DNA of 64,000 nucleotides from contig CAZSQB010000001.1 of NCBI GenBank assembly GCA_964608945.1, positions 3,211-67,210 of the forward strand, in the 5' to 3' direction. The notes beneath the pieces were generated by a model, which saw only the letters and a program-made list of their open reading frames with translations, did not search any database and was not told the DNA's origin. Both the position numbers and the translations under genes were made by a program. Below are positions 5,944 to 58,937 of this stretch, one piece after another. The number at the start of each line of letters is the position of its first letter. The first letter of the stretch is position 1. The stretch comes from an uncultured Gammaproteobacteria bacterium. Lineage in GTDB: Bacteria > Patescibacteriota > Microgenomatia > Levybacterales > UBA12049.

Positions 5944-6000
5944 CATAGTAACCTTACGCAATAAACTCTGCAATAATGATAAATAGTGCATGATTACGCT

Positions 6001-7638: not shown

Positions 7639-7644
7639 CAATTT

Positions 7645-9321: not shown

Positions 9322-9329
9322 AGGCGTTC

Positions 9330-36451: not shown

Positions 36452-37320
36452 TGAAAATTTTACTTATTGGAAAAAACGGACAACTTGGAGCAGAAATTAA
36501 TAAACAATCAGTTGAAAGAGGATATAGTATTCGTTCTTTCGGACATGAAAGACTTGATATTACAGATAATGAGAAAGTCAAATTAGAAATAGATAAATTC
36601 AAACCGGATGTGATTATTAACGCCTCTGCATTTCATGTTGTCCCGGAGTGTGAAGATAAACCAGACCAAGCTTTTTTAGTAAATGCAACCGCACTTAAAC
36701 CGGTTGCACAAATTTGTTCAGAGCAAAATATAAGATTTGTGCATTTTTCAACTGATTACGTTTTTGACGGACTAACAGGATCGCAATATCTTGAGGAAGA
36801 TAAGCCCAGTCCCGTACAAATGTATGGTATATCAAAAGTAGCGGGAGAATACATTATGCTTGCCTACTCTCAAACAAGCGTTGTAATAAGAAGCTCTGGA
36901 GTTTATGGAGGGGAAAAAGGAAGCAGGTCAAAAAAAGGAAATTTTGCTCTCAATATATTGAAACAAGCAGAAAAAGAGAATGTGATTGAAGTGGCATCAG
37001 AACAGATTGTTAATCCAACTTATGCGTTGGATTTGGCAAAAGCGACATTTGATCTTTTAGAGAGTAAAGACACCAGTGGTATTTACCATTTGGTTAATGA
37101 GGGCTATTGTTCTTGGGCGGATTTTGCGAAGGAAATTATTAAAATTAAAAATATGTCAACAAAAATCATTCCTGTTGATAGAGGAGGATTGGCAGGAACA
37201 CTGCGAAGACCGCTTTTTTCAGCGCTTAAAAACAATCGAGCGGCAAAACTCGGAATTAAACTCCCGATATGGCAAGACGCAATTAAAAGATACTGTCAGA
37301 CCATTAGTAAAGATGAATAA
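36451..37320 (+). CDS. rmlD: dTDP-4-dehydrorhamnose reductase.
   Basis: MKILLIGKNGQLGAE...PDVIINASAF...HFSTDYVFDG...YGISKVAGE. The start overlaps the rmlC stop (ATGA). Confidence 0.8.
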   Translation: MKILLIGKNGQLGAEINKQSVERGYSIRSFGHERLDITDNEKVKLEIDKFKPDVIINASAFHVVPECEDKPDQAFLVNATALKPVAQICSEQNIRFVHFSTDYVFDGLTGSQYLEEDKPSPVQMYGISKVAGEYIMLAYSQTSVVIRSSGVYGGEKGSRSKKGNFALNILKQAEKENVIEVASEQIVNPTYALDLAKATFDLLESKDTSGIYHLVNEGYCSWADFAKEIIKIKNMSTKIIPVDRGGLAGTLRRPLFSALKNNRAAKLGIKLPIWQDAIKRYCQTISKDE

Positions 37321-40039
37321 CAAATTACTTAAGACATTATTGATTCCATTTATAATTACGGCTGTTTTTTTTGTGATCCAAGCTTTTTCCTTAATCAAGG
37401 ACTTTGGATTCTTCTCTGTCATTGAAGAGAATCGGGTTAGTTTTCAAAGAGATAAACCTTTACAGTCGCCTCTCTTAAAGAGTGAAAAAATAGTCGGAAG
37501 ATTTAAAGGTGCAGAGAACAACTTTGGTGTCATACTCTTGAGATTTGTTAAATTTGGGAAAGGTTCGGATACTCTAATATTTAGACTTAAGGAAAAGGGG
37601 AGTAGAGACTGGTATTATGAAAATAAATACGATGGCGAACTATTTCAAAACAATGAATATTATCCATTTGGTTTTCCATCTATTTCTAGTTCAAAGAATA
37701 AGTCTTATCTTTTTGAAATAAAATCAACTTCAGGAAGTGATAAGAATGGTGTTGCTTTAAGCGATGCTAAACCTCAGTTAGCACTAGTTTATACATATTC
37801 CCAAGATCAAATTAGGAATCCTGCATCTCTACTTTCATTCGTTTATAAAAAAATGATCTACGTCATTGGAAACACTAATTATTTGATGATGTTGGGCGTG
37901 TTTTTTCTTTTCTTACTTATTAGGCTTTCAGCAAAGAGAATTTCAAAACTGTTTTTCAAATTTAAGAAAAATCCCAGAAAATTCGCTGATGAAATTATAG
38001 CCGCTATAAATATAAAGAATTTCACCGGGCGTTCTAAAGAGAGAGGGTTCCAATTTAATAAAGTCAAAATCTATCAGTATCTATTAAATACAAATACGAA
38101 GAGAAGAGTATTAATCGCAATACTACTATTTCTCATCGCATTTTTATTTAGATATTCTTCGTCGCTAGTTAATCAGTCTAGCATATTTTATTACACGTTG
38201 GGTGGAGGAGGAGACTATGATCAATTTATGAGAGCATCTACTTGCGCTTTAAATTTTTGTTCGTGGATTATACACCAAAATCTTCTCATTGAATCACTTA
38301 TTTTAGGTTCTTTTTATCAACTTTTTGGATTTGTAGGAGGTCTTAAGACGTATTCACATCTCATGTTACTTCTCTCCTCAATAGTTGCTACTCTTCCATA
38401 TGTCCTTCTTTCAAGGAAGACTTGGTTCTCAATTGGTGGAATTGTGGGCTCATTATTTCTTACAACCTCAGACTTTTTAACTACCGTTGCGTTAAACTTC
38501 CCCCCCGACAACGGATCTGCCTTTATCTTCTCAATGTTCTATATAGTTTATTTGTTGACTATGCATTATGGAACAATTCGTTGGCTAGCAGCTCTGGGGT
38601 TGACAGGATTTTTTGATGGGATGTTTAAAGCATTCTTTCTAATCAATGACCTTGCGGCATTGGCTCTTTTTGCTCCCGCCTTCTTTTATGAGAAAACAAG
38701 GAAAACGGCCCTACCGCGAGCTAAACAGTTAAGGGTAATTCTTAAGCGAAAAAATATTAAAATACTACTTTTAGCTTTATTACCATTCCTAATTTTCTTG
38801 ATTTTGTACTCGGCTTGGGAATATTTTGTGCAAATAAAATTCTCAGCACCCTATTTTCTAAGAATGTTAGTTGAGACTACGGGATCGAATTTCAGGTCTG
38901 AAACGTTATTCTATGATAGAAATTCTGGAAAAGCAGAACAGGATCTCTTACTGCAATTATTTTACCTTTTAATCTCAGGATTAGTTATGATTAAGCGAAT
39001 GATTAGTATCTCTGATTTACAGGTAATTTTTCTAGCGCCAATTTTCTTCGGACTTCTACTCTTTTCCTTTATAAAATCAAGCTCCAAAATTAAACTCTCT
39101 CCTCTAAAGCTCGGTACGATATTCGTTTTTTCGTTTATAAATATCGTTTTACTAGTAAGTGTTAAAAATAATTACTTAGGTATTCATCAAATCTTTCCCG
39201 GAGAATATATTTACGCCAATTGGACTTTAAAGACTTATATCTCTATCTTCCTCTTTGCATCTATAATTTTTCTTTTTATACTAAATTTTAGGTATCAAGC
39301 TTTTAAACTTGCTCTTCCAATAGTGCCTTACGTTATAATGCTTATTATCCTGACCAAGAATGCTCCCTGGGAAAGGCTTTTGGCGCACGTTATTGTATGG
39401 AGTATAATTTTATTTTCCTTCCTTATTGATTGGATTTTAAGCAATACTAAGAAGAACCTGCCTGCCCTGCCTGCCGGCAGGCAGGGCGGCAGGCATGGTT
39501 ATGCATTAAAAAGATTATGGATTGGTCCTATCCTTCTAGTTCTATTCATCTTTTTTTATACAATTCCTAAAACATCGAGTATGGTAGCGCAACTGCGTTC
39601 AGGTATTAACAACACAAGAGGCGAAGTTGAATACTTAAAATGGGTAAACTCAGAATTACCAAAAAATGCCATAATTCTTGCAGGAGGGAAAAGTGATCTA
39701 GTAACTGTTACCGAAAATATAAATAGACCTATTATTTATAATACTTTGTGGTCCACCTCTTTACTAATTCGTCCAAATAGAATTCCTGGAGTATCACCGC
39801 AAGATTTCACTCTCACAGGGGAATTGAGGAATAAAGAAAATTTTAATAAAAAAAGATATTTTGTTTTAGAGAGCGATGTCTATTTATGGAGGGGAAGGCT
39901 TCAAGGTGTAGGAGATAACGTCTTTACAACAGAGCCAAAATCTAATATTGCTCTTCACGCGCAAGATTTCTCAATAAAAGTTTACAAAACAAGTCAAGAA
40001 CTTAATAAAAACATCTATGAGTTGAGACCAAAAGAATGA
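37313..40039 (+). CDS. Giant polytopic membrane protein A (about 908 aa): N-terminal TM, extracytoplasmic beta-rich domain, multi-TM core. Putative GT-C-type glycan polymerase/transferase.
   Basis: The ATG at 37313 overlaps the rmlD stop by 8 nt; the ORF-track start at 37076 is an in-frame read-through of rmlD. Colinear homology with 42253..45111 throughout (KGAENNFGVILLRF / KASENNFGILLFRF, GGDYDQFMRA / QGDYDQFIRA), with about 167 aa of 100% identity near the C-terminus. Confidence 0.7.
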   Translation: MNNKLLKTLLIPFIITAVFFVIQAFSLIKDFGFFSVIEENRVSFQRDKPLQSPLLKSEKIVGRFKGAENNFGVILLRFVKFGKGSDTLIFRLKEKGSRDWYYENKYDGELFQNNEYYPFGFPSISSSKNKSYLFEIKSTSGSDKNGVALSDAKPQLALVYTYSQDQIRNPASLLSFVYKKMIYVIGNTNYLMMLGVFFLFLLIRLSAKRISKLFFKFKKNPRKFADEIIAAINIKNFTGRSKERGFQFNKVKIYQYLLNTNTKRRVLIAILLFLIAFLFRYSSSLVNQSSIFYYTLGGGGDYDQFMRASTCALNFCSWIIHQNLLIESLILGSFYQLFGFVGGLKTYSHLMLLLSSIVATLPYVLLSRKTWFSIGGIVGSLFLTTSDFLTTVALNFPPDNGSAFIFSMFYIVYLLTMHYGTIRWLAALGLTGFFDGMFKAFFLINDLAALALFAPAFFYEKTRKTALPRAKQLRVILKRKNIKILLLALLPFLIFLILYSAWEYFVQIKFSAPYFLRMLVETTGSNFRSETLFYDRNSGKAEQDLLLQLFYLLISGLVMIKRMISISDLQVIFLAPIFFGLLLFSFIKSSSKIKLSPLKLGTIFVFSFINIVLLVSVKNNYLGIHQIFPGEYIYANWTLKTYISIFLFASIIFLFILNFRYQAFKLALPIVPYVIMLIILTKNAPWERLLAHVIVWSIILFSFLIDWILSNTKKNLPALPAGRQGGRHGYALKRLWIGPILLVLFIFFYTIPKTSSMVAQLRSGINNTRGEVEYLKWVNSELPKNAIILAGGKSDLVTVTENINRPIIYNTLWSTSLLIRPNRIPGVSPQDFTLTGELRNKENFNKKRYFVLESDVYLWRGRLQGVGDNVFTTEPKSNIALHAQDFSIKVYKTSQELNKNIYELRPKE
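39251..39751 (+). repeat. Copy 1 of a perfect 501-bp direct repeat inside giant membrane protein gene A.
   Basis: Base-for-base identical to 44275..44775 on manual alignment (offset 5,024 bp). Flanks diverge immediately on both sides. Confidence 0.9.
39457..39495 (+). repeat. GC-rich near-perfect palindrome (CCTGCCTGCCCTGCCTGCC|GGCAGGCAGGGCGGCAGGCA) in-frame within gene A, encoding LPALPAGRQGGRH.
   Basis: About 77% GC over 39 nt in an approximately 30% GC gene. The arms are reverse complements of each other apart from a single base. Confidence 0.8.
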
Positions 40040-40063
40040 ATCTTCTTGTGATAAAATTGGGAA

Positions 40064-41107
40064 ATGTTAAAATCGAATCCTAAAGTTTCCATAGTTATTC
40101 TTAACTATAACGGTAAGAGGTGGCTTGAAAAGTTGCTTCCTACGATTGAGAAAATAAAATATAAGCCTCTTGAAGTTATTATTGTAAATAACGGATCAAC
40201 AGATGACAGTGGAGAATTTGTAAAAAATAAATATCCCCATTTCCGTTTAATTGAGATAATGCCAAACAGAGGGTTTGCCGGAGCAAATAATTATGGAGTA
40301 AAGCATGCGAAAGGAAAATACGTGCTACTTATTAATAATGATACTCAGGTTCCACCAGATTTTCTTGCTCCAATGGTTGGCCGAATGGAAGTCGATAAAA
40401 CTGTAGGCGTAATACAACCAATGATAAGGAGTTTAAGAAATAGAAATGTTCTTGACGCTGCATGCTCTTTCTATACTTCAACTGGTTTTCAATATCACTA
40501 TGGGTATTACCAACCATATAAGAAGAAGCAATATAATAAGGAACATTACGTTTATTCTGCTAAGGGAGCGTGTTTATTTACCCGTCGAGATCTTTATTTA
40601 AAACTTGGGGGACTGGATGAGGACTTTGTGTGCTACGTAGAGGAGTCCGATTATTGTCATCGCATTTGGTTGTCGGGTAAAAAAGTTTTGTATTTTCCAC
40701 AAAGCTATATTTATCACTGGGGCGGTGGAGATATGTCAGTAATGGAAAAAAGCGAGACCACAATTTTCCGCTCTTTTAGGAATAGATATTACTCATACAT
40801 TAAGAATCTAAGCTTTGTAGAGCTTATCAAATTATTACCAGCCCACTTTGTGTTTTCTGAAGCAATGATTTTCTCAGCACTTGCAAGAGGCATAATTCGT
40901 TATGGACTTTCTGCACAACTTGGAACTTTATGGTGGATTTTCCATCTTCCTCGGATCCTTAAAAAGAGAAGATACATACAAAGGAAAATTAGGAAAGTGT
41001 CTGATGCTGACTTCATACCACTGATAAAACATGATCCACCTTTATCATACTACCCGCACTTTCTAAGAAATCCTGAAGCAAAATATAATGAATCGCCGAT
41101 AGACTAA
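40064..41107 (+). CDS. GT2 glycosyltransferase (tandem paralog a). Rhamnosyl/galactofuranosyl-transferase-like long GT2.
   Basis: VSIVILNYNGKRWLEKLLPTIE...VIIVNNGSTDDS...PNRGFAGANNYG...LLINNDTQV. Confidence 0.75.
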   Translation: MLKSNPKVSIVILNYNGKRWLEKLLPTIEKIKYKPLEVIIVNNGSTDDSGEFVKNKYPHFRLIEIMPNRGFAGANNYGVKHAKGKYVLLINNDTQVPPDFLAPMVGRMEVDKTVGVIQPMIRSLRNRNVLDAACSFYTSTGFQYHYGYYQPYKKKQYNKEHYVYSAKGACLFTRRDLYLKLGGLDEDFVCYVEESDYCHRIWLSGKKVLYFPQSYIYHWGGGDMSVMEKSETTIFRSFRNRYYSYIKNLSFVELIKLLPAHFVFSEAMIFSALARGIIRYGLSAQLGTLWWIFHLPRILKKRRYIQRKIRKVSDADFIPLIKHDPPLSYYPHFLRNPEAKYNESPID

Positions 41108-41178
41108 AATGGCAAAGCCGTTTCGACTATTAAATCTGGCTGGTGGGGAGCATGACCAAAAAACAGAATTATTAGAAA

Positions 41179-42237
41179 ATGAATTTAAAAATTGTTGAAA
41201 GTTCTAAGGTTCCAAAAGTGACCGTACTTATACCCAACTACAATGGAAAAAAGTGGCTTGAAAAGTTGCTTCCTACTGTTGAAAAAACAACTTACCCAAA
41301 CAAAGAAATTCTCGTTGTAAACAACGGATCTACAGATAACAGTGGTCAGTTTCTTAAAAAAAACTATCCCAATGTTCGTGTTGTAGAGGTTAAAAAGAAC
41401 AGAGGTTACGCAGGGGCGAATAATTTTGGCGTAAAGTTTGCCAAAGGTAAATATATTTTATTTCTCAATAATGATACTCAAGTTACTCCAAGCTTTTTAG
41501 AACCTTTGGTTGAAAGGATGGAAAAAGATAATACCGTAGGTGCTGTTCAGCCTCAGATAAGACACATGGTTAAAAAAGACGTCATTGATTCAATAGGCTC
41601 CCTTTTTACGTTTACAGGATTTTTATACCACTATGGGTATTTTCAATCCTACAAAGAAAGGAAATATCAAAAAGAACTATCTGTATATTCTGTCAAAGGA
41701 GCATGTTTTCTTATGAGTAAAGAAGATTATATAGATCTTGGGGGAATTGATGAGAGCTTTGTAACCTATGTTGAGGAATCAGATCTTTGCCATAGAATTT
41801 TGTTAAGTGGTAAGAAAATAGTTTACGTTCCAAAAAGCGTTGTTTACCATTTTGGGGGAGGGGATATGAACATCATGACAAAAAGTGAAGTAGTGATATT
41901 TCGATCCTTTAGAAATAGATTTGTGTCTTATTTAAAAAATTTAGGGGTGAAAAAACTTATCCTTGTTCTGCCGGTCCATTTTGTTCTATGCGAAATGCTT
42001 ATTTTCATGAGCCTTCTGCGGGGAAAGTTCAAACAGGCCATAGCGTCTCAAGTTGGAGTCGTAGGATGGATCCCAAATTTCTTTTCGATTTTAAAACAGA
42101 GAAAATATATACAGTCGCGTATAAGAAAGATAAGTGATGATGAACTCTTCGCATCCGTTGAACATAACCCCAGTTTCGGATATTACTCTCATTTCTTTTT
42201 TGACCCTTATGGCAAATTTAGCGAAAAAGAGCTATAA
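41179..42237 (+). CDS. GT2 glycosyltransferase (tandem paralog b).
   Basis: VTVLIPNYNGKKWLEKLLPTVE...ILVVNNGSTDNS...KNRGYAGANNFG...LFLNNDTQV. Colinear with 40064..41107. Confidence 0.75.
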   Translation: MNLKIVESSKVPKVTVLIPNYNGKKWLEKLLPTVEKTTYPNKEILVVNNGSTDNSGQFLKKNYPNVRVVEVKKNRGYAGANNFGVKFAKGKYILFLNNDTQVTPSFLEPLVERMEKDNTVGAVQPQIRHMVKKDVIDSIGSLFTFTGFLYHYGYFQSYKERKYQKELSVYSVKGACFLMSKEDYIDLGGIDESFVTYVEESDLCHRILLSGKKIVYVPKSVVYHFGGGDMNIMTKSEVVIFRSFRNRFVSYLKNLGVKKLILVLPVHFVLCEMLIFMSLLRGKFKQAIASQVGVVGWIPNFFSILKQRKYIQSRIRKISDDELFASVEHNPSFGYYSHFFFDPYGKFSEKEL

Positions 42238-42252
42238 TTTTTTACGTTTTCG

Positions 42253-45111
42253 ATGAAGCACTTTAAATTATTTATCATTTCATTGTTTTTGGTATTTGGA
42301 TATTTAATATTGATTTCGTATCCTTATTTTTTTTCCAAGATTACGCGTTTTGATTCACTCGGACCTCTTTCATTAGTGGAAGAAAAATCGGTAAATATCC
42401 AAAAAACGTTCAGTCCAGACCGCAGAACCGATCAATTTGACAATCACTTGCTTAAAGGAGAAAAGGTCACTGTTAAACTTAAAGCTTCCGAAAACAATTT
42501 TGGTATTTTATTGTTTAGATTCGCGCAACTATCTGACAATGTAACAGATACGGTTGTTTTTAGAGTAAAAGAAGAAGGAAAAGAATGGCACTATGAAAAT
42601 AATTATAAGGCAAACCAATTTCAGCCAGATCAGTATTTTACTTTTGGTTTTCCTCCTTTTAAAAATTCCAAAAACAACACCTACGTTTTTGAGATAGAAT
42701 CTCTTTCAGGCACATACAAGAATGGAATTGGGGTGAGTTTGAGAGAACCGCAAGTCGCGTTAGTTTATAAATACACACGAGCCGATCTAACGAATTTTAA
42801 TACGCTTTTCCCTTTTATTTTTAAAAAATTTGTTTATGTAGCAAGAAACGTAAATTTCCTTCAAGATAGGCAGTTATTTATAATATTTTTTTCGTCATTT
42901 CTTTTTACTCTTTATTTGAAAAATAAAAGAAAAATAAAATTGCCAAAGCCTAAAAAGAAGTATCGTAAATTTTTAAAAATGGTTGTCGGTGAAATAATCT
43001 TCGATTATGTATTATTTGAAAAGAAGCTATTTAAACCTTTAAAAAAATCAGTCCTCAGATTTACCAGATCCAAATTTTATTTAAAATACTTAGATACAAA
43101 TGCTAAAAAAAGATTAGCAATTGTTTTATTAGTATTTTTAATCGCGATTCTTTACCGATTTTCCGCAGCTTCAGTTGATCAATTAGGTGTGTTCTCATTT
43201 TATGCGGGTTTAGGTGGTCAGGGTGATTATGATCAATTTATAAGAGCTGCAACATGTGCAGTAAGAAACTTTTGCCCTGCCATCTTAGGACAAAACTTTC
43301 TTATTGAATCATCTATCTTAGGGACGTTTTACGAAATATTCGGATTTGCGGGGGGACTTAAAGCATATCTATATTTCATGATTATTCTAAGCTCAATTGT
43401 TGCTACTCTTCCTTACGTTCTTTTGTCTCGAAAACACTTTATCACAATAGGTGGAATAATCGGCAGTCTTTTTCTTGCAACTTCAGATTATTTAACTCAT
43501 ATGGCCCTTAATCTTCCACCAGACAACGCGTCTCTATTTGCCTTCTCAATGTTCTTTATAGTTTATCTAATTACGATTCATATTGGAACCATTCGTTGGC
43601 TTTTATTTTTTGGCTTGATAGGTTTAATAGATGGATTAAATAAATTATTATTATTAATAAATGATTTAGCAGTATTTATGCTATTTGTTCCGGTTTTCTT
43701 CTATGAAAAGGCAAATAAGACTAAGAAGTTTCCTTTTGTTAAATTAAACCCAAAATTGATCTTCTATTCTATACTGCCACTTTTAGTTTTCCTCGTGATT
43801 TATTCGGCATGGGAGTATGTTGTACAAATGAAATTCTCAACTCCCTACTATTTGAGAGCATTGATAGAAGGAGGTTCTACCTATCAATCATCCACTGACG
43901 CAGGATCTATGTCCATCAATGAAAGTCTTTCACAAGGCAATATATTGGAAAAATTATTTTATTATGCAGGATTGTCTGTCGTTATGCTAAAACGAGTAAT
44001 TCAGAATGCTGGTCTTAATGATATCTTTCTTATTCCCATTTTATTCGGTTTATTATTCGCGACTTTCAGAAAGTCCCCATTCGATGGATTCGACAAGCTC
44101 ACCACAAGTAATCTCAGGGCAAGAAAATTTTCTGTCACGAAATTAATATCTATGGTAATTTTTGCAAGCCTTGCTTTTACGACCCTACAATTATTCAAAG
44201 AAAACTTTCTGGGCATACAAGATATTGGACAATATGTCTATGCATGGTCCAATGATATTTATGTTAATGTATTTCTCTTTGCATCTATAATTTTTCTTTT
44301 TATACTAAATTTTAGGTATCAAGCTTTTAAACTTGCTCTTCCAATAGTGCCTTACGTTATAATGCTTATTATCCTGACCAAGAATGCTCCCTGGGAAAGG
44401 CTTTTGGCGCACGTTATTGTATGGAGTATAATTTTATTTTCCTTCCTTATTGATTGGATTTTAAGCAATACTAAGAAGAACCTGCCTGCCCTGCCTGCCG
44501 GCAGGCAGGGCGGCAGGCATGGTTATGCATTAAAAAGATTATGGATTGGTCCTATCCTTCTAGTTCTATTCATCTTTTTTTATACAATTCCTAAAACATC
44601 GAGTATGGTAGCGCAACTGCGTTCAGGTATTAACAACACAAGAGGCGAAGTTGAATACTTAAAATGGGTAAACTCAGAATTACCAAAAAATGCCATAATT
44701 CTTGCAGGAGGGAAAAGTGATCTAGTAACTGTTACCGAAAATATAAATAGACCTATTATTTATAATACTTTGTGGACAGCGGCGTTACTGATTATACCAA
44801 ATGAAATTCCAGGAGCAAAACCCACTGATTTTGCTATATTAAATCAGTTGAAAATCAATGAGATACCAGGAGTAAGCCCAAGTGATTTTAGTATAATACG
44901 GGAGTTGAGAAACAAGGATAATTTCGGGAAAAACAAGTATATGATTTTAGAAGATGACGTTTATATATGGCGAGATAGAGTAGCAGGAGTAGGAGATAAT
45001 CTTTTTTCTACATCTTCTGCTGCGTTGCTTAATGGAGAGGATTACTTAATCAAAGTCTATAAATCCAATCCAATTCTAAAAAAAGCTATCTACGAATTAA
45101 AGCTTAAGTAG
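42253..45111 (+). CDS. Giant polytopic membrane protein B (952 aa). Paralog of 37313..40039.
   Basis: Same domain order as protein A. Carries the second copy of the 501-bp identical segment. Confidence 0.7.
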   Translation: MKHFKLFIISLFLVFGYLILISYPYFFSKITRFDSLGPLSLVEEKSVNIQKTFSPDRRTDQFDNHLLKGEKVTVKLKASENNFGILLFRFAQLSDNVTDTVVFRVKEEGKEWHYENNYKANQFQPDQYFTFGFPPFKNSKNNTYVFEIESLSGTYKNGIGVSLREPQVALVYKYTRADLTNFNTLFPFIFKKFVYVARNVNFLQDRQLFIIFFSSFLFTLYLKNKRKIKLPKPKKKYRKFLKMVVGEIIFDYVLFEKKLFKPLKKSVLRFTRSKFYLKYLDTNAKKRLAIVLLVFLIAILYRFSAASVDQLGVFSFYAGLGGQGDYDQFIRAATCAVRNFCPAILGQNFLIESSILGTFYEIFGFAGGLKAYLYFMIILSSIVATLPYVLLSRKHFITIGGIIGSLFLATSDYLTHMALNLPPDNASLFAFSMFFIVYLITIHIGTIRWLLFFGLIGLIDGLNKLLLLINDLAVFMLFVPVFFYEKANKTKKFPFVKLNPKLIFYSILPLLVFLVIYSAWEYVVQMKFSTPYYLRALIEGGSTYQSSTDAGSMSINESLSQGNILEKLFYYAGLSVVMLKRVIQNAGLNDIFLIPILFGLLFATFRKSPFDGFDKLTTSNLRARKFSVTKLISMVIFASLAFTTLQLFKENFLGIQDIGQYVYAWSNDIYVNVFLFASIIFLFILNFRYQAFKLALPIVPYVIMLIILTKNAPWERLLAHVIVWSIILFSFLIDWILSNTKKNLPALPAGRQGGRHGYALKRLWIGPILLVLFIFFYTIPKTSSMVAQLRSGINNTRGEVEYLKWVNSELPKNAIILAGGKSDLVTVTENINRPIIYNTLWTAALLIIPNEIPGAKPTDFAILNQLKINEIPGVSPSDFSIIRELRNKDNFGKNKYMILEDDVYIWRDRVAGVGDNLFSTSSAALLNGEDYLIKVYKSNPILKKAIYELKLK
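44275..44775 (+). repeat. Copy 2 of the perfect 501-bp direct repeat inside giant membrane protein gene B.
   Basis: Identical to 39251..39751. Confidence 0.9.
44481..44519 (+). repeat. Second copy of the GC-rich palindrome (inside the 501-bp repeat).
   Basis: Same 39-nt sequence as 39457..39495. Confidence 0.8.
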
Positions 45112-48992: not shown

Positions 48993-49921
48993 AAGTTTTA
49001 GTTACCGGCGGTGCCGGCTACATCGGTTCTATACTAGTTCCTATGCTGCTTGAGAAAGGTGCCGCGGTAACGGTAGTGGACAATTTTTTTTATAACCAAA
49101 ATTCACTTCTAGACGTGTGTTATCATCCGAGACTAAAGGTTGTACGGGCAGATGCGCGGGGGGATAAACTCATGGCATCTTTAATGAAAGGACAAGACTA
49201 TATTTTGCCCCTGGCGTGTCTTGTGGGTGCGCCCCTTTGCGAGAAATTCCCGCAGGAAGCAAGAGCCGTAAATCTTGAAGCGATAAAAATGATTTTAAAA
49301 CTCCGAAAGCCTGGCCAGAAAATTATCTTTCCGAATACAAACAGCGGCTACGGCATTGGTAAGGCCGGGATTTATTGTAATGAGGCAACACCCCTTAGGC
49401 CGATTTCTTTATATGGACGGTTGAAAGTAGAAGCTGAAGAGGCGATACTTGCCGCCGGGAACGCCATTACTCTTCGCCTTGCGACCGTTTTTGGCATAAG
49501 TCCTAGAATGAGACTCGATCTTTTAGTGAATGACTTTGTTTACAGGGCTGTGCACGACGGCTATGTAGTCCTTTTTGAGGCAGGTTTTAAGCGAAATTAC
49601 ATTCACATTCGGGATGTAGCACGCGCATTTATCCATTGCATAGATAATTTCAAGAATTTGAAAAATGAACCCTACAATGTAGGACTAACGGATGCCAACC
49701 TTTCCAAACTAGAGCTTTGTGAGGAAATTAAAAGGCAGATTCCGGATTTTACTTTCGTTGTTTCTCCTATCGGTCGCGATCCGGATCAACGCAATTACAT
49801 TGTTTCAAACGTTAAGATAGAAAAGACTGGCTTTATGCCACAGATTTCTTTGCGAGACGGCATAACAGAGCTAATAAAGGGATATCAGATTATAAGGAGG
49901 CATGATTTTACCAACTTATGA
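48989..49921 (+). CDS. NAD(P)-dependent epimerase/dehydratase (extended SDR).
   Basis: MKVLVTGGAGYIGSILV...YGRLKVEAE (YxxxK). Confidence 0.7.
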   Translation: MKVLVTGGAGYIGSILVPMLLEKGAAVTVVDNFFYNQNSLLDVCYHPRLKVVRADARGDKLMASLMKGQDYILPLACLVGAPLCEKFPQEARAVNLEAIKMILKLRKPGQKIIFPNTNSGYGIGKAGIYCNEATPLRPISLYGRLKVEAEEAILAAGNAITLRLATVFGISPRMRLDLLVNDFVYRAVHDGYVVLFEAGFKRNYIHIRDVARAFIHCIDNFKNLKNEPYNVGLTDANLSKLELCEEIKRQIPDFTFVVSPIGRDPDQRNYIVSNVKIEKTGFMPQISLRDGITELIKGYQIIRRHDFTNL

Positions 49922-50871
49922 AGTTGCTGGAAATTTATAGAAAGCTTTATCTTATTCGGAGGAGCGAAGAATTGATTATTAAGCATTATAAAGAAAATGA
50001 AATGAAGACGCCCATGCATATGTCCATGGGTGAAGAAGCCATTGTAGTAGGAGTAGTCGCGGCTCTTCAAAAAAGAGATCAGGTGTTTGGTACTTATAGA
50101 AGTCATGGTTTATATCTGGCGAAGACCGATGATACGGATAAATTTTTTGCCGAACTTTACGGTAAGGTGACCGGTAGCGCTCGCGGAAGGGCGGGGTCAA
50201 TGCATCTTGCCTCGCCCAAGAATTGGATGATGCTTACCTCCGCAGTAGTAGGAACAACCATTCCCGCCGCAGTCGGAGCAGCACTGGCAAATAAATTTCT
50301 AAAGAACCAAAAGGTGGTTGCCTCATTTTTCGGCGATGGTGCGCTTAATGAGGGTGTTTTTTGGGAGAGTTTGAATTTCGCCTGCCTTAAAAAACTGCCA
50401 GTTCTTTTTGTATGCGAAGACAATAATTTTGCTATACACTCGCCAGTTGGCGAGCGCATAGGATATAAATCCATAGTGCAGGTGGTGTCGCAATTCTACT
50501 GTCATGTAGCTGGCAGTGATACTACCGACGTCTTTGAGATTTGTAGGGAAACTTCCGAGATGATTAAGAAAATGAAACAGACCGGCAAGCCGGGATTTCT
50601 TCACTTAAAATACTATCGGTATCTTGAGCATGTAGGCGTGGAGGAGGATTTTCATTTCGGTTATAGGTCAAGACAGGAATTTTTAAAGTGGAAAAGAGTC
50701 GATCCGCTGCTTGTCGCCCGAAGATATTTACTTCGCGCCCGCGTGAAAGAAAACGATATAACCGCCGAAGAATTTATTGTTGACCAAAATCTAGCTCAGA
50801 GTCTTAACAAAGCGCGAAAAGCGCCGTATCCAACCGATGCGGAGTTATTTGCTGATATATATGGCTCGTAG
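49918..50871 (+). CDS. Thiamine-diphosphate-dependent dehydrogenase E1 component, alpha subunit (PDH/acetoin-DH E1-alpha family).
   Basis: FFGDGALNEGVFWESLNFACLKKLPVLFVCEDNNFAI is the GDG-x(25-30)-NN TPP-binding motif. YRSHG. Confidence 0.8.
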   Translation: MKLLEIYRKLYLIRRSEELIIKHYKENEMKTPMHMSMGEEAIVVGVVAALQKRDQVFGTYRSHGLYLAKTDDTDKFFAELYGKVTGSARGRAGSMHLASPKNWMMLTSAVVGTTIPAAVGAALANKFLKNQKVVASFFGDGALNEGVFWESLNFACLKKLPVLFVCEDNNFAIHSPVGERIGYKSIVQVVSQFYCHVAGSDTTDVFEICRETSEMIKKMKQTGKPGFLHLKYYRYLEHVGVEEDFHFGYRSRQEFLKWKRVDPLLVARRYLLRARVKENDITAEEFIVDQNLAQSLNKARKAPYPTDAELFADIYGS

Positions 50872-51907
50872 AATCATTACCTTTGAAAAAGCGGTTAACG
50901 AAGCTATTTTTTTGGAAATGAAACGCGACAAACGCGTTTTCCTTTTCGGTCTTGACGTAACAGATCATAAGAGAATTTTTGGTACAACTGAGGGGTTGGA
51001 GATATTCGGCAGGAACAGGTTTTTTGGAACGCCGCTTTCTGAGGACGCTATGATCGGCGTCGCGCTCGGAGCGGCGATAACGGGGTTAAGACCAATCCAC
51101 GTTCATATACGCGTTGACTTTCTCCTTTTGGCAATGAATCAACTTATAAATATGGTTGCCACAACGGCCTTTGGCAGCGCTGGAAAGTTAAAAGCACCTC
51201 TGGTTATTAGGGCAATTATTGGGCGCGGATGGGGTCAGGGATTTCAACATTCTAAATCATTGCAATCAGTATTTGCTCATATGCCTGGTCTTAAAGTCGT
51301 AATGCCGTCTCGGCCGTCGGACGCCAAGGGATTATTAATATCGGCAATTCGGGACGATAATCCCGTAATTTTTTTGGAGCATCGATGGCTTTATTGGCTG
51401 CAAGGAGATGTGCCGTCGAATGCATACACCATACCGCTTGGGGAATCGTGCATTTTGAGAGCTGGCCGCGACATTACCATCGTGGCAACATCATGGATGA
51501 ACGTTGAGGCCGCGAAAGCTGCGGAGATTCTTTCACGCATACACGGCGTCGAAGCAGAAATCATTGATGTTAGAACAATATACCCCCTTGACGACGAAGC
51601 AATCGTAAAGTCCGTGATAAAGACAGGTCGCTTAATCGTGGCCGATTACGATTGGGAATTCTGTGGATTTAGCGCCGAAGTTGCAGCACGTGTCGCTGAG
51701 AAATGTTTTAATAAATTGAAGTCACCTGTAAGTAGAATCGCCTTTCCTCATACGTCATGTCCCACCACGCGTCCGCTGGAAAACGCATTTTATCCCAATG
51801 CTGCAACTATCATTCGCGAGGTTGAAAAGAAATTGGGGCTCGCGAGAGCGGACTTGCGAAGCGAGGATTTTTATAGTTGGGAGAATAGGTTTAAAGGACC
51901 TTTTTAA
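50861..51907 (+). CDS. TPP-dependent dehydrogenase E1 component, beta subunit (transketolase-like Pyr plus C-terminal domains).
   Basis: FGLDVTDHKRIFGTTEGL...FGTPLSEDAMIGVALGAAITGLRPI...GQGFQHSQSLQSVFAHMPGLKVVMPS. ATG at 50861 is preferred over the track's 50837; it overlaps the alpha stop by 11 nt. Confidence 0.75.
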   Translation: MARRIITFEKAVNEAIFLEMKRDKRVFLFGLDVTDHKRIFGTTEGLEIFGRNRFFGTPLSEDAMIGVALGAAITGLRPIHVHIRVDFLLLAMNQLINMVATTAFGSAGKLKAPLVIRAIIGRGWGQGFQHSKSLQSVFAHMPGLKVVMPSRPSDAKGLLISAIRDDNPVIFLEHRWLYWLQGDVPSNAYTIPLGESCILRAGRDITIVATSWMNVEAAKAAEILSRIHGVEAEIIDVRTIYPLDDEAIVKSVIKTGRLIVADYDWEFCGFSAEVAARVAEKCFNKLKSPVSRIAFPHTSCPTTRPLENAFYPNAATIIREVEKKLGLARADLRSEDFYSWENRFKGPF

Positions 51908-51908
51908 A

Positions 51909-53096
51909 ATGAAAAAATTAAACTGGCCACTCATGAAAAAAAATATTTTAAGGGAAGATTTAGATGCTGTTGTAAAATTTCTTAAAGCTAAAGATGATCT
52001 AATTCTTACCCAATCTAAGAATGTGCGAAAATTTGAAGAAGAATGGTCCAAGTGGCTAGGGGTCAAATACAGTGTTTTAGTTAACTCCGGTGCATCAGCC
52101 AATCTTTTAAGCATCTTAGCAATTCGGCAAATGTATGGTTTGGGTGAGATAATTGTTCCTCCGTTAACTTGGGTATCTGATATTGCATCTGTTATCCAGT
52201 GTGGTTTCAAACCAGTGTTTGTGGATATCAATCCAAGGACACTTGGGATGGATAATGAGCTAGTTTTGAGAAAAATTACCCGTAATACAAAGGCTGTTTT
52301 TTTGACCCATATCTTAGGAATAAACGGCCTCAGTCAAAAATTGTTGGACGAATTGCGCGCAAAAAAAATTCCGCTTGTTGAAGACGTTTGTGAATCATAC
52401 GGAGCAACTTTTAAAGGAAAAAAGCTAGGCACATTTGGCCTTATATCAAATTTTTCTTTCTACTATGCTCATCATATGAGTAGTATTGAAGGAGGAATGA
52501 TTTCCACAAATGATCCTGACATATACGAGATGATCCGTATGGGGCGTAGCCATGGAATGGTACGTGAGGCTGATTCGGAGTCACTAAAAAAATCTTATCA
52601 AAAAAAATATCCTGATCTAAATCCAGATTTTATATTTGCATTTCCAGCATATAATATGCGCTCTACTGAAATAAATGCTGTCATAGGATTATCTCAACTT
52701 CGAAGGCTTTCTAAAAACAATAAAATTCGTTCAAAAAATTTAAAAATATTTTTATCAAATCTGAATCCTAACATATACCAAACAGACTTTGAGACCCGCG
52801 GTAGTTGTAACTATGCATTTGTTTTAGTTCTGAAACAACCTAGTCCCTTACTTGCAAAGAAAGTTATGAGGACGCTTAACGCTTATGGTGTCGAGTTTCG
52901 TAGGGGAACTTCAGGTGGAGGAAATCAGTTAAGGCAACCCTATTTAAGAAAGATTGTTGGCGATAAAGAGTATAAAAAATATCCAAATGTTGAGCATATA
53001 CACTTTTATGGCCTTTATATTGGTAACTACCCTACCTTAGAAGAGAAGAAAATTTACAAGTTGTGCGATGTTCTAAATAATCTTAAGAAGTCGTAG
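51909..53096 (+). CDS. Second DegT-family enzyme with His in place of Lys. Predicted sugar 3-dehydratase (ColD/E1-like).
   Basis: FSFYYAHHMSSIEGG (His codons at 52470..52475). ATG at 51909 lies immediately after the E1-beta stop; the track start at 51798 is a read-through. Confidence 0.7.
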   Translation: MKKLNWPLMKKNILREDLDAVVKFLKAKDDLILTQSKNVRKFEEEWSKWLGVKYSVLVNSGASANLLSILAIRQMYGLGEIIVPPLTWVSDIASVIQCGFKPVFVDINPRTLGMDNELVLRKITRNTKAVFLTHILGINGLSQKLLDELRAKKIPLVEDVCESYGATFKGKKLGTFGLISNFSFYYAHHMSSIEGGMISTNDPDIYEMIRMGRSHGMVREADSESLKKSYQKKYPDLNPDFIFAFPAYNMRSTEINAVIGLSQLRRLSKNNKIRSKNLKIFLSNLNPNIYQTDFETRGSCNYAFVLVLKQPSPLLAKKVMRTLNAYGVEFRRGTSGGGNQLRQPYLRKIVGDKEYKKYPNVEHIHFYGLYIGNYPTLEEKKIYKLCDVLNNLKKS

Positions 53097-56472: not shown

Positions 56473-56543
56473 CCCAGACGCAGAAAAAATTCTAATCTGT
56501 GCCGCCGCCGCTATGTATTGCGCATTTCCAATTTTTAGGTATA

Positions 56544-58937
56544 ATGATCCAATTGGAGATTATAGGTTTAAGGAAATTAAAAAGGGCAAACAAAATTCTT
56601 GCTTTGATCGAGAATCGGCCATGGATTGTTTTTGTCGCGCTTTTAGTAGTCATCCTCTTTTTATTCCGCGGACTTTTTAATTCGTATTTTGAAGCGGATG
56701 AATGGTTTCATTTTACATATTACTTTCCGCTTACAAAAAGACCCGATGGGTTTTTAACAGCAATAATATCGACAATTATTAACTCGGGTCCCTTATCCGC
56801 GGGACAACATGTTGTTCCCGTTGCTTCCGCAATATATTTCCTGAATACAAAATTTTTTGGCATGAATTATGCACCTTATGCGTTTATGTCTTTGTCTCTT
56901 CATGCAGTAAATAGCTTTTTGGTATTCGTATTTATAAAAACTTTGTTACATAGAAAAGATATAATAACTAAAAATGTTTTCGCGCTTCTAGGCGCTGTTT
57001 TTTTTGCTCTTTCTCCACAGCATTCTCATACAATAACAGGCGCAGCCCCGTTTTACGGTCAGAATATTTTGTCTGTGACCTTTTTCCTATTATGTATTAT
57101 TTCATTTAAGCTTGCATATCTTCGTGAAAATAAAAAATTCATATACCTTTCTATACTTTTTCTTTTCTTATCACTTTTCACTAAGGAAACGGCAGTCTTT
57201 CTTTTTGTGCTCCTTCCGTTTATGGCTATAATCGAAAAAAAGGGTCTGCCTGCCAGCAGGCCCCGCACCGCTCTGGTGCAGGGCAGGCAGGTTTTTCCTC
57301 TGAAATTTTTAGGTAAACTGTTCATCCTAAGTTTAATTATATATGCGACATTTAGATTTTTAGTTCCGAATATTTATTATGGTGTTGGCCCGCTTGTTGA
57401 CAAACTAGTTGGAAATTATGTTTCGTCATCACTTCCGTCTTGGCAACAGCAGTCGCGCGAAACACCAAAAGTTCCTGATACTGGAACAATTGTTAGCACC
57501 GATCTTTCGATTCACAAGAATCTTCTGGGAGAAATTTTGTTTCGCAGCGTGACTTTTCCTGTAAAAATGACAGGAACTCTTTTTTTGCCAAGACAAACAG
57601 TATTTTCTATTGTCCAGTTTATTACGCCAATTGTTCAACCTGTGCCGCCTGGTGGAGATAGCGCGGATATGTCTCAAGCCCGACTTACATTTTTGTACGG
57701 TCCGGGAAATGGCTTCATTATTTACATAGTAGGTATTGGTATTATTATTTTTTGTGCAAGAGAGTATTTTAGCTTTGTTCGAGGGAAAAAGATAGAGGAG
57801 GCAAGAACACTCGCAACAGGATTTGCAATGATTGTTTTAAGCTCGCTGCCTTTGGTTGCAATTATATTTTCCTTTCCTCGTTGGGGATATGATTTTTATT
57901 TTGACTCGCGGTTTTATTATAATCCCAATGTCGGCGCGGCTATTATTTTCCCGTTTTTACTCTTGGGTTTTTCGGAGTTTATTTCCAAATCGTTTCAAAA
58001 GAAGACAGTTGTTCCCCTGATAGCTTTTACACTTTTCACTCTTTGGCTGATTAATAATATTGCTGTACTAAATGTAAGTATCAGGTATTTCACCCAGAAT
58101 TTTCAACCGGATCGACGGGAGGTCGTAGAACAGTTGAAAAAATATCTTCCAAGCCTTCCTAAGATTACTGTTTTCTATATTGAAACAGATGGTCTGAGTG
58201 CTTATGGTCCGAGTCTTCCATTTCAGACAGGCGTTGCCCCAGCGCTTAGCGTAGTTTATTATGATAACAACCCCTTACCGAATAGTTTTTTTAATAAACC
58301 ACTTTTTGATGGCAAGAAAGAAGGTTATTTATATTCGCAAGGTCGTGGATTTGGATATTATATATCTAAGAAGACGCTTGCAGAAGCGCTTCTTGCAAGT
58401 AAATTTAAGGTTTCTGATATCCGCGCTTTTTACTATAAAGCACAAGATGTAAAACTTATCGATACAACAGGCGAAGTTAGGGCAGAAATGGATAGCTATC
58501 TTACAGCTGCAAAAGAAAATTCTGATTGGAAAAACTACCTTGATCTTTCAACAGGGTTATCATTTTATTACCCTTCTCAAGCGGATATAGAAGAAGTGCC
58601 GCAAGATAGCGCGCAAAGCACAGCAACGTCGTTTGCAATTATTAGTCCAATATTTACCATAAGAATGACAATTTTCAATGTAACGCCTGCTTTTGCAGTG
58701 AATGAATACTCACAAATTCTGACAAACGGTAAATTAGGTATTGTTAATTCGCGAAAAGTTTCATATGATAAGTTTCATTATAATGACAGCCTAATTGTAA
58801 ATAACAATGGAAAAATTGAGTATTTAATTAAGCTTAATGATAGGTTAATAATAGTTGAAACAGAAAACCAGGACGCTGAGTCAATTTTAGCAGTAGAAAA
58901 GATTGCAGGTTCAGTTGAAATTATTAAGAAAGAATGA
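56544..58937 (+). CDS. Large GT-C-like membrane protein (about 797 aa) with a C-terminal extracytoplasmic domain. Probable partner transferase of the upstream GtrB-like GT2.
   Basis: FRGLFNSYFEADEWFHFTYYFPL (DE-type loop motif) and many TM segments. ATG at 56544 has AGGT 6 nt upstream; the track's 56499 start is less likely. Contains the GC-rich palindrome at 57246..57290. Confidence 0.65.
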   Translation: MIQLEIIGLRKLKRANKILALIENRPWIVFVALLVVILFLFRGLFNSYFEADEWFHFTYYFPLTKRPDGFLTAIISTIINSGPLSAGQHVVPVASAIYFLNTKFFGMNYAPYAFMSLSLHAVNSFLVFVFIKTLLHRKDIITKNVFALLGAVFFALSPQHSHTITGAAPFYGQNILSVTFFLLCIISFKLAYLRENKKFIYLSILFLFLSLFTKETAVFLFVLLPFMAIIEKKGLPASRPRTALVQGRQVFPLKFLGKLFILSLIIYATFRFLVPNIYYGVGPLVDKLVGNYVSSSLPSWQQQSRETPKVPDTGTIVSTDLSIHKNLLGEILFRSVTFPVKMTGTLFLPRQTVFSIVQFITPIVQPVPPGGDSADMSQARLTFLYGPGNGFIIYIVGIGIIIFCAREYFSFVRGKKIEEARTLATGFAMIVLSSLPLVAIIFSFPRWGYDFYFDSRFYYNPNVGAAIIFPFLLLGFSEFISKSFQKKTVVPLIAFTLFTLWLINNIAVLNVSIRYFTQNFQPDRREVVEQLKKYLPSLPKITVFYIETDGLSAYGPSLPFQTGVAPALSVVYYDNNPLPNSFFNKPLFDGKKEGYLYSQGRGFGYYISKKTLAEALLASKFKVSDIRAFYYKAQDVKLIDTTGEVRAEMDSYLTAAKENSDWKNYLDLSTGLSFYYPSQADIEEVPQDSAQSTATSFAIISPIFTIRMTIFNVTPAFAVNEYSQILTNGKLGIVNSRKVSYDKFHYNDSLIVNNNGKIEYLIKLNDRLIIVETENQDAESILAVEKIAGSVEIIKKE
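57246..57290 (+). repeat. Third GC-rich imperfect palindrome (CTGCCTGCC...GCACC...GGTGC...GGCAGGCAG) in-frame, encoding LPASRPRTALVQGRQ.
   Basis: The outer arms CTGCCTGCC / GGCAGGCAG are identical to those of the 39457 and 44481 elements. The sequence context is also the same (KK-x-LPA ... GRQ). Confidence 0.7.

What the first reader, a model, noticed from the sequence alone, without database searches (positions are those of the whole stretch)
39251..44775. Perfect 501-bp direct repeat shared by two giant paralogous membrane-protein genes that bracket a tandem GT2 pair
Genes A (37313..40039) and B (42253..45111) are homologous along their length at roughly 50-60% protein identity by eye. A 501-bp block (39251..39751 = 44275..44775) is base-for-base identical. 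It encodes about 167 identical residues covering the last TM helices and the start of the C-terminal extracytoplasmic domain. Identity stops abruptly at both edges. This is the signature of recent gene conversion or homologous recombination between the paralogs, not of purifying selection. Together the two copies define a 5 kb unit, [A-3' part]-[GT2a]-[GT2b]-[B-5' part], that could be deleted or amplified by recombination between the repeats. The module [giant GT-C-like protein + GT2] x2 therefore looks like a recently duplicated and still-homogenising glycan polymerase/transferase cassette. It may be a substrate for surface-glycan variation.
Basis: seen in the sequence. Interest (0 to 1): 0.7.

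Follow-up and report, generated by a model that had tools for sequence, protein, structure and literature searches.

The report
Gene-conversion patch carrying a mini-palindrome
Two old, diverged copies of a membrane sugar-transferase gene share a perfect 501-base patch that was recently copied from one copy to the other; this is ordinary gene conversion, but the patch carries a tiny GC-rich palindromic insertion whose core also sits in-frame in unrelated genes of many uncultured bacteria.

Summary
Window 39251-39751 equals 44275-44775 base for base over 501 nt, while the flanks are about 40-65% identical.

A (908 aa) and B (952 aa) are GT-C-fold glycosyltransferases of a family I found only in Patescibacteria (CPR). 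They bracket two GT2 genes. None of this is a recent duplication. A, B, GT2a and GT2b each have their own orthologues in related genomes.

The block is a recent, non-reciprocal gene conversion from B into A.
- On both sides of the block, A matches A-orthologues and B matches B-orthologues.
- The block is 94-97% identical in its first third (78-97% overall) to the B orthologue of a separate metagenome assembly (L074).
- An independent Logan assembly breaks exactly 30 nt inside the block's right end and shows the junction from block to A-3'.

The same segment shows an older conversion in another genome, so it appears to be a conversion-prone segment.

Near the block's centre is a 42-nt, 83% GC palindromic in-frame insertion (LPALPAGRQGGRHG).
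- It is absent from 72 other family members.
- A 21-nt version sits at the same site in the L074 B orthologue.
- Its 24-nt core occurs exactly at 67 sites in 66 stretches of genomes from many phyla, in-frame in enolase, DNA ligase and topoisomerase.

The palindrome is most likely a passenger of the conversion. What the palindrome family is remains unexplained.

The parts
39251..39751 (+). Block copy inside gene A; the recipient of the conversion
   Evidence: It is identical to 44275-44775. Immediately outside it, A matches the A-orthologues JGI_A889 and L003_A. Inside it, A is 78-97% identical at nucleotide level to the L074 B orthologue, and 94-97% in the first third.
44275..44775 (+). Block copy inside gene B; the donor
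   Evidence: B is 69-97% identical at nucleotide level to the L074 B orthologue along the compared stretch (residues 561-935), inside and outside the block, so B kept its own sequence. In the block tree, winA plus winB are sister to L074_B.
39458..39499 (+). 42-nt GC-rich near-palindromic in-frame insertion in A, encoding LPALPAGRQGGRHG. It contains the perfect 24-nt palindrome at 39464-39487.
   Evidence: It is 83% GC in a 36.8% GC window. Predicted hairpin energy is -20.9 kcal/mol as DNA and -34.6 as RNA, z about -4.2. It is absent from the other 72 family members found. It lies in a low-confidence loop of the model, residues 745-758.
44482..44523 (+). The same 42-nt insertion in B; the perfect palindrome is at 44488-44511
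   Evidence: The L074 B orthologue has a 21-nt version, CTGCCTGCCGGCAGGCAAGGT (LPAGRQG), at the same codon position.
37313..40039 (+). Gene A, 908 aa: GT-C-fold membrane glycosyltransferase with an N-terminal CBM-like beta-sandwich
   Evidence: It is a homologue of B. No Pfam or NCBIfam family matches. It follows rmlC and rmlD, as the A-type orthologues do in L003 and L090.
42253..45111 (+). Gene B, 952 aa: paralogous GT-C-fold glycosyltransferase
40064..41107 (+). GT2a, a family 2 glycosyltransferase
   Evidence: PF00535, E = 1.7e-25. It is 79% identical to L001 GT2_345 and 55% to GT2b.
41179..42237 (+). GT2b, a family 2 glycosyltransferase
   Evidence: PF00535, E = 5.8e-33. It is 78% identical to the single GT2 of L003.
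57243..57290 (+). Second element of the same family: a 48-nt in-frame insertion (GLPASRPRTALVQGRQ) with arms CTGCCTGCC and GGCAGGCAG, inside another large membrane-protein gene (56499..58937)
   Evidence: It is absent from most homologues, but four homologues (P0087, P0089, P0095, P0096) carry shorter or degenerate inserts at the same site. P0089 has a CCTGCCG/CGGCAGG hairpin there. The element is present and 100% identical in the independent Logan contig L091.

Best explanation
A and B are ancient paralogous GT-C-fold glycosyltransferases in a large surface-glycan gene cluster of a Patescibacteria (CPR, Roizmanbacteria-like) genome. Very recently, a 501-bp stretch of B was copied into A by non-reciprocal homologous recombination (ectopic gene conversion). 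No substitution has accumulated since in 2 x 501 nt.

The tract covers the most conserved segment of the family, from the last transmembrane helices to the start of the C-terminal domain. It ends where A and B lose similarity.

The copy carried along a 42-nt GC-rich palindromic in-frame insertion that had lived in the B lineage since before the window genome split from the L074 genome. I infer that the palindrome was a passenger and not the cause. It belongs to a widespread family of palindromic mini-insertions, free of stop codons in all frames, whose way of spreading is unknown.

Shown: the identity, the donor direction, the age of the paralogues, the GT-C fold, and that the palindrome is an insertion. 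Inferred: the recombination mechanism, the passenger role, and the enzymes' substrates.
For: - Exact 501-nt identity with complete codon identity, against diverged flanks.
- Clean boundaries. Left of 39251 and right of 39751, A matches the A-orthologues JGI_A889 and L003_A, and B matches L074_B.
- Segment trees. Upstream, A sits in the A clade and B is sister to L074_B. In the block, A plus B are sister to L074_B.
- Block-to-L074_B nucleotide identity is 94-97% at residues 681-740, against 65-82% to L003_A and 85-91% to JGI_A889 over the same windows.
- The insertion sits at the same site in L074_B only, as a 21-nt version.
- The paralogues are old: GT2a/GT2b and A/B each have separate orthologues.
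- An older conversion exists in the same segment in a genome with no palindrome in that segment. JGI_A889 against co-resident JGI_886 is 84-98% identical at residues 666-770, against 49-57% upstream.
- The independent Logan contig L092 equals window 39722-41940. It starts exactly 30 nt inside the block's right end, which is what a k=31 assembly graph does at a true repeat (the k value is from my own knowledge). It also shows the junction from B-type block to A-3'.
- GT-C fold.
Against: - No reads were available, so the left junction (A-5' to block) rests on the deposited assembly alone.
- Protein-level similarity in the block is ambiguous about the donor: 0.82 to both A-type P0059 and B-type P0013. 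Only the nucleotide comparison with L074 and the shared insertion settle the direction.
- The insertion centre lies about 22 nt from the tract centre. That fits, but does not prove, a causal role for the palindrome.
- No other related locus sampled has a tract of 90% identity or more, so conversions as recent as this one are rare.
Confidence: 0.85

Rival explanations
1. Palindrome-driven spread, analogous to homing. The GC-rich palindrome is an active element. A break at the empty site in A was repaired from B, copying the element together with about 210-250 bp of flank on each side.
For: - The insertion (39458-39499) lies within about 22 nt of the tract centre, with 207 nt on the left and 252 nt on the right.
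- Among the related loci sampled, the only paralogue pair with a perfect tract is also the only pair that both carry the palindrome.
- Family hairpins recur at identical sites in homologous genes.
- Yeast mitochondrial GC clusters are reported as recombination hotspots that mediate gene conversion (PMC4478555).
Against: - The same segment was converted in the JGI genome, where the aligned copies carry no palindrome.
- The tract coincides with the most conserved segment, which alone predicts its position.
- The palindrome sat in the B lineage since before the window/L074 split, and no non-B paralogue in L074 received it.
- No nuclease or transposase gene was identified.
- Given that the insertion lies somewhere in the tract, centrality this close has a probability of only about 0.09.
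Confidence: 0.15
2. Assembly artefact. The block in A is a mis-join, or a consensus built from B reads, in a metagenome-assembled genome.
For: - The source is a metagenome assembly.
- No reads could be inspected.
- The exact proteins A and B are on record from one NCBI contig only.
Against: - Both junctions need k-mers that join A-specific flank to block sequence. A de Bruijn assembler cannot invent these (inference).
- The independent Logan contig from another run, identical in 3 samples, carries A-3' flank preceded by 30 nt of B-type block and stops exactly there.
- The reading frame is intact.
- The palindrome in B is corroborated by the independent JGI assembly L074.
Confidence: 0.05
3. 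A recently duplicated [GT-C + GT2] cassette in which everything except the block has diverged; this is the first reader's model.
For: Gene order repeats as GT-C, GT2, GT2, GT-C.
Against: - A/B and GT2a/GT2b each have closer orthologues in other genomes than they have to each other.
- Flank nucleotide identity is about 40-65%, with diverged synonymous sites.
Confidence: 0.01

Closest known systems
Ectopic (interparalogue) gene conversion, or concerted evolution, in bacterial multigene families
   Same: A short, non-reciprocal tract of perfect identity lies inside otherwise diverged paralogues. Tree topology differs between the tract and its flanks. The tract sits in the most similar segment and has recurred there.
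   Different: It occurs in a CPR genome, between GT-C glycosyltransferase paralogues that are only about 55% identical. The tract also moved a heterologous 42-nt insertion.
GT-C fold glycosyltransferases (ArnT, PglB/STT3/AglB, PMT, ALG mannosyltransferases, Emb/Aft)
   Different: No Pfam, NCBIfam or PDB sequence match was found. The protein has an extra N-terminal CBM6/35-like beta-sandwich and its own C-terminal domain. I found the family only in Patescibacteria.
Rickettsia palindromic elements (RPEs)
   Same: Both are palindromic repeats inserted in-frame into unrelated protein-coding genes, including housekeeping genes, and are tolerated in surface loops (PMC10969869; here).
   Different: RPEs are about 150 bp and confined to Rickettsia. 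This module is 21-48 nt and GC-rich, and its core is shared exactly across many phyla.
Yeast mitochondrial GC clusters (for example GC42)
   Same: Both are short GC-rich hairpin-forming elements in AT-rich genomes. GC clusters are dispersed, show conserved stems, and are linked to recombination and gene conversion (PMC4478555).
   Different: GC clusters are mitochondrial, mostly intergenic, and have an AG target site. No such target was seen here.
REP / BIME / REPIN elements
   Same: Both are short (20-40 bp) GC-rich palindromes dispersed in bacterial genomes (PMC3733652 abstract).
   Different: REPs are extragenic and tagged by GTAG or CGTC at one end. The copies here are often intragenic, always a multiple of three in length, and lack those tags.

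Membership tests
Ectopic gene-conversion tract | A run of identity between paralogues far beyond the flanking similarity, including synonymous sites | tested here: met
   501 of 501 nt and 167 of 167 codons are identical; flanks are 36-70% identical at nucleotide level.
Ectopic gene-conversion tract | Phylogenetic incongruence: the tract groups with the donor lineage and the flanks group with their own orthologues | tested here: met
   Segment NJ trees and nucleotide identity profiles.
Ectopic gene-conversion tract | Non-reciprocal: the donor is unchanged | tested here: met
   B stays 69-97% identical to L074_B along the compared stretch, inside and outside the block.
Ectopic gene-conversion tract | Both junctions present in sequencing reads | tested here: inconclusive
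   The right A junction is seen in the independent Logan contig L092, which breaks at k-1 = 30 nt. The left junction could not be checked, because the look-ups found nothing.
GT-C glycosyltransferase superfamily | Multi-pass membrane GT-C fold | tested here: met
GT-C glycosyltransferase superfamily | Conserved acidic residues in the first extracytoplasmic loop | tested here: inconclusive
   D325 and Y326 are invariant and D327 is at least 90% conserved (GDYDQ) after an early helix. Membrane sidedness and structural equivalence to catalytic Asp residues were not checked.
GT-C glycosyltransferase superfamily | Sequence membership in a curated GT-C family (PMT_2, STT3, ArnT and others) | tested here: not met
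   No Pfam, NCBIfam or PDB profile hit.
GT-C glycosyltransferase superfamily | Use of a polyprenyl-phosphate-linked sugar donor | not testable with these tools
   This needs biochemistry.
Rickettsia palindromic elements / MITEs | Element of about 100-150 bp with terminal inverted repeats and target-site duplication | tested here: not met
   Inserts are 21, 24, 42 and 48 nt, and no direct target duplication was seen.
Rickettsia palindromic elements / MITEs | In-frame insertion into unrelated ORFs | tested here: met
   Found in enolase, ATP-dependent DNA ligase, topoisomerase I, cysteine desulfurase, a GH2-like enzyme and GT-C proteins.
Rickettsia palindromic elements / MITEs | Multi-copy dispersal within one genome | tested here: inconclusive
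   Only 3 copies lie in this 64-kb window, and two of them arose by the conversion. In other genomes, extra family hairpins occur within the same 8-10 kb stretch in 19 of the 67 fetched loci that hold the palindrome.
REP / RAYT elements | Extragenic location and a GTAG or CGTC tag at one end | tested here: not met
   All copies in this window are intragenic, and their flanks show no such tag.

The most novel reading that the evidence does not exclude
The CTGCCTGCC|GGCAGGCAG hairpin is a previously undescribed, cross-phylum family of tiny mobile or self-propagating palindromes. They carry no stop codon in any frame. They insert in units of 21-24 nt, almost always in the phase that reads LPA|GRQ, into loops of essential and surface proteins of CPR and other uncultured bacteria. 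They can nest within themselves and are spread between paralogues by gene conversion. The 501-bp tract would then be a caught-in-the-act copy event.
Probability: 0.4. Interest if true: 0.8.

Novelty: new variant of a known kind. Interest (0 to 1): 0.55.

Why it matters
The block itself is a textbook conversion tract. Its value is as a clean, dated example showing three things:
- CPR genomes, despite their small size, still recombine between diverged paralogues.
- Their very large glycosylation clusters evolve as mosaics.
- A 5-kb unit holding two GT2 genes is now flanked by recombination-competent direct repeats.

The more interesting result is the passenger. A 24-nt GC-rich palindrome is shared exactly across many phyla and sits in-frame in enolase, DNA ligase, topoisomerase and GT-C enzymes. 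If it is a true element, it is among the smallest intragenic repeats known. It would be a new source of protein-loop variation, and of assembly breaks, in uncultured bacteria.

Tried and rejected
- **Direction of conversion from proteins alone:** ambiguous, because the block is conserved across clades. It was resolved only with L074 DNA.
- **Known RNA family for the palindrome or the larger repeats that hold it:** Rfam at gathering thresholds found only tRNAs in the 18 of 67 palindrome loci scanned.
- **Literature searches:** the DNA string, the peptide LPAGRQG and descriptive terms gave nothing relevant.
- **Palindrome in cultured-organism collections:** no match in E. coli genomes, only chance-level matches in plasmids, and one IMG/VR contig.
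- **Conserved target motif next to the 24-mer:** none. The only signal is excess symmetry of the first flanking base, 42 of 67.
- **Recent conversion tracts in related loci:** none at 90% identity or more.
- **Look-ups of the window's own A, B, rmlD, GT2b, SIS and a B-3' fragment in the contig index:** not on record. The left junction and both B junctions therefore lack independent support.
- **Profile search of solved structures by sequence:** no hit.
- **Not possible:** Over-representation of the 24-mer therefore rests on composition arithmetic: fewer than 0.5 occurrences expected even at 70% GC, against 67 sites seen.
Full report
**1. The observation**

An in-register comparison at offset 5024 shows an uninterrupted run of 501 identical bases, 39251-39751 = 44275-44775. 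The repeat finder reports the same pair. Identity collapses at the left edge. On the right it falls to about 70% over the next 40-50 nt; blastn gives 97.3% over 548 nt with the edges included.

In a codon alignment of A (37313..40039, 908 aa) and B (42253..45111, 952 aa), sliding windows outside the block show 21-75% amino-acid identity and 36-70% nucleotide identity. There, only about 30-70% of conserved residues use the same codon. Inside the block every codon is identical. Neither chance nor purifying selection gives that pattern.

This is the only repeat of at least 60 nt at 90% identity or more in the whole 64-kb window. GT2a (40064..41107) and GT2b (41179..42237) both match PF00535.

**2. 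What the genes are**

A and B match no Pfam, NCBIfam or PDB sequence family. A database search found 74 homologues. Every source-given name is from Patescibacteria (Roizmanbacteria and the "Patescibacteria group"), and several paralogues often sit on one contig.

The window is one long glycan cluster. It holds rmlC and rmlD directly upstream of A, sugar-nucleotide enzymes, six tandem PMT_2-type GT-C genes at 4273-14142, and more GT-C-like giant proteins downstream. I infer that A and B transfer sugars from lipid-linked donors onto surface glycans or proteins.

**3. The paralogues are old**

Syntenic loci were fetched from independent assemblies.
- L003: rmlC-rmlD-(230-aa fragment ORF)-A'-GT2-B'-SIS-GHMP.
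- L001 and L090, one JGI contig: rmlD-A'-966-...-GT2-GT2-933-MT-970-886-SIS-GHMP.
- L074, a 574-kb JGI contig.

GT2a is 79% identical to an L001 GT2, GT2b is 78% identical to the L003 GT2, and the two are 55% identical to each other. In the tree of the 300 residues upstream of the block, A falls in a clade of A-type proteins from other genomes and B is sister to the L074 B orthologue. The "recently duplicated cassette" reading is therefore wrong.

**4. The block is a B-to-A conversion**

At nucleotide level, A matches its orthologues JGI_A889 and L003_A immediately left of 39251 and right of 39751, while B matches L074_B. Inside the block both copies are B-type.

In 30-codon windows at residues 681-740, block identity is 94-97% to L074_B, against 65-82% to L003_A and 85-91% to JGI_A889. 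B itself is 69-97% identical to L074_B across the compared stretch. In the block tree, A plus B are sister to L074_B. B is therefore unchanged and A received the patch.

With zero differences in 2 x 501 nt, the event is younger than roughly 0.3% divergence (inference).

**5. Is it an artefact?**

Reads were not available. Two arguments speak against an artefact.
- Junction k-mers that join A-specific flank to B-type block must exist in the reads for a de Bruijn assembler to write them (inference).
- A Logan contig from a different run, SRR12113430, identical in three samples, equals window 39722-41940 at 100%. It begins exactly 30 nt inside the right end of the block. That is k-1 for the k=31 graphs Logan uses (my knowledge). 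It is where a contig must stop if the block continues in two ways. The contig also shows directly the junction from B-type block end to A-3' flank.

The left junction could not be checked.

**6. A conversion-prone segment**

The block coincides with the most conserved part of the family. A-clade against B-clade identity is 0.57-0.73 there, against 0.26-0.44 just upstream.

In the JGI genome, the A orthologue and the co-resident paralogue JGI_886 are 84-98% identical at nucleotide level over residues 666-770, against 49-57% upstream, and their longest exact match is 67 nt. This is an older tract in the same place, in copies that carry no palindrome at the site. L003 shows no such tract. No other related locus has a tract of 90% identity or more.

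The segment therefore appears to be homogenised from time to time, and earlier rounds probably left enough similarity for the latest one.

**7. The palindrome**

Near the centre of the block, at 39458-39499 and 44482-44523, lies CTGCCTGCCCTGCCTGCCGGCAGGCAGGGCGGCAGGCATGGT.
- It is 83% GC in a 36.8% GC window.
- It contains a perfect 24-nt palindrome.
- It folds at -20.9 kcal/mol as DNA and -34.6 as RNA.
- It encodes LPALPAGRQGGRHG in a basic loop that the model leaves disordered.
- It is absent from the other 72 family members found.

The L074 B orthologue has a 21-nt version at the same codon: AAC|CTGCCTGCCGGCAGGCAAGGT|TTT, encoding LPAGRQG. The window's version equals that element with a second 21-nt unit nested at its centre. 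The insertion is therefore a B-lineage trait older than the window/L074 split, and the conversion delivered it to A.

A related 48-nt insertion with the same arms sits at 57243-57290 in another large membrane-protein gene. Most homologues lack it, but four homologues carry shorter or degenerate inserts at the same site, and the one whose DNA was read (P0089) holds a hairpin of the same kind.

**8. The palindrome elsewhere**

The exact 24-mer occurs at 67 sites in 66 stretches of species-representative genomes. By the record titles, 22 of these stretches come from CPR lineages. The rest come from Bacteroidota, Gammaproteobacteria, Chloroflexota, Planctomycetota and others, including one cultured isolate. 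From composition, fewer than 0.5 occurrences are expected.

- Flanks are unrelated, apart from a few repeat families within single genomes and two orthologous gene pairs.
- The palindrome contains no stop codon in any frame.
- Where it lies well inside long ORFs it reads ALPAGRQG in 17 of 24 cases. That includes every case from a locus below 50% GC.
- Hosts include enolase, ATP-dependent DNA ligase (same site in two MAGs), a topoisomerase I zinc ribbon and cysteine desulfurase. In enolase it is a 7-residue gap against solved enolases, within the N-terminal stretch between the NPTVEVE and PSGxS motifs.
- The first flanking bases are symmetric in 42 of 67 copies.
- Some copies are extended arrays of the form (CCTGCCTGC)n/(GCAGGCAGG)n.
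- 19 of the 67 fetched loci hold further family hairpins within the same 8-10 kb.
- No Rfam family overlapped the palindromes in the 18 loci scanned, and no paper matched.

The nearest analogues are Rickettsia palindromic elements, which are in-frame but about 150 bp (PMC10969869), and yeast mitochondrial GC clusters, which are GC-rich hairpins tied to recombination (PMC4478555). How the module spreads is unknown.

**9. Passenger or driver?**

The insertion lies about 22 nt from the tract centre, and this is the only paralogue pair with both the palindrome and a perfect tract. That hints at a homing-like copy event. Three points argue the other way.
- The same segment converted elsewhere in copies without a palindrome.
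- The position of the tract is explained by conservation alone.
- The palindrome sat in the B lineage for a long time without spreading to another paralogue.

I put the passenger reading well ahead, with about 0.15 for an active role.

**10. Verdict**

The gene-conversion reading is right and the recent-duplication reading is wrong. The block is an ordinary kind of event, documented here in an unusual lineage. The embedded palindrome family is the part worth following up.

Noticed in passing
window 57243-57290: A second GC-rich inverted-repeat insertion (arms CTGCCTGCC and GGCAGGCAG around 27 nt, 16 codons) lies in the 812-aa membrane-protein gene 56499..58937. Four homologues from other genomes carry shorter or degenerate inserts at exactly the same loop site.
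   Followed up: yes
L005-L070 (GTDB genomes) and L071 (IMG/VR): The exact 24-nt palindrome GCCCTGCCTGCCGGCAGGCAGGGC occurs at 67 sites in 66 stretches from many phyla, often in-frame as ALPAGRQG in housekeeping genes. In some genomes it is the core of larger repeats of about 80-170 nt, some with terminal inverted repeats. The viral contig L071 holds about seven related hairpins in 10 kb.
   Followed up: partly
L047 (Patescibacteria H52-bin120_1), about 1890-1975: The ATP-dependent DNA ligase carries, besides the C-terminal ALPAGRQG insert, an N-terminal tandem array LPAGRYG-PPAGRYG-LPAGRYG-LPAGRQG that is absent from its orthologue in L022.
   Followed up: no
window 4273-14142: Six tandem paralogous genes of about 500-560 aa encode PMT_2/YfhO-type GT-C glycosyltransferases. 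More lie at 19017-20657 and 26630-28363. This is an unusually dense GT-C array.
   Followed up: partly
window 59608-63485 and L091 7333-11201: There are tandem giant (1168 and 1170 aa) proteins with weak GT-C_AftD similarity, each followed by an ORF of about 130 aa. The second copy lies beyond the end of the window.
   Followed up: no
L003 5495-6187: A 230-aa ORF between rmlD and the A orthologue is 69% identical to the N-terminal CBM-like domain of B-type paralogues. It looks like the remnant of a lost or rearranged paralogue, which is evidence of locus plasticity.
   Followed up: partly
window about 44808-44864 (B residues about 853-871): Most B-type proteins aligned carry a roughly 19-residue stretch, absent from A-type proteins, that makes the NEIPG-x-xP-x-DF motif occur twice (NEIPGAKPTDFAILNQLKINEIPGVSPSDFS).
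   Followed up: no
window 48000-52000: GC is 42-45% here, against 36.8% for the window. The stretch includes ORFs 50837..51907 and 51798..53096, which overlap by 110 nt in different frames. It may be a foreign or differently constrained segment.
   Followed up: no
L075 1-141 and 2679-2819: A 2,819-nt metagenome contig that encodes a family member has identical 141-nt ends. This is most likely a k=141 assembly overlap and not biology.
   Followed up: no
P0051/P0052, P0009/P0048, P0002/P0010 (family proteins): Several other pairs of family members share long identical stretches of 205, 316 and 82 aa. Overall identity within these pairs was not computed. The stretches may reflect further mosaicism or strain-level duplicates.
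   Followed up: no
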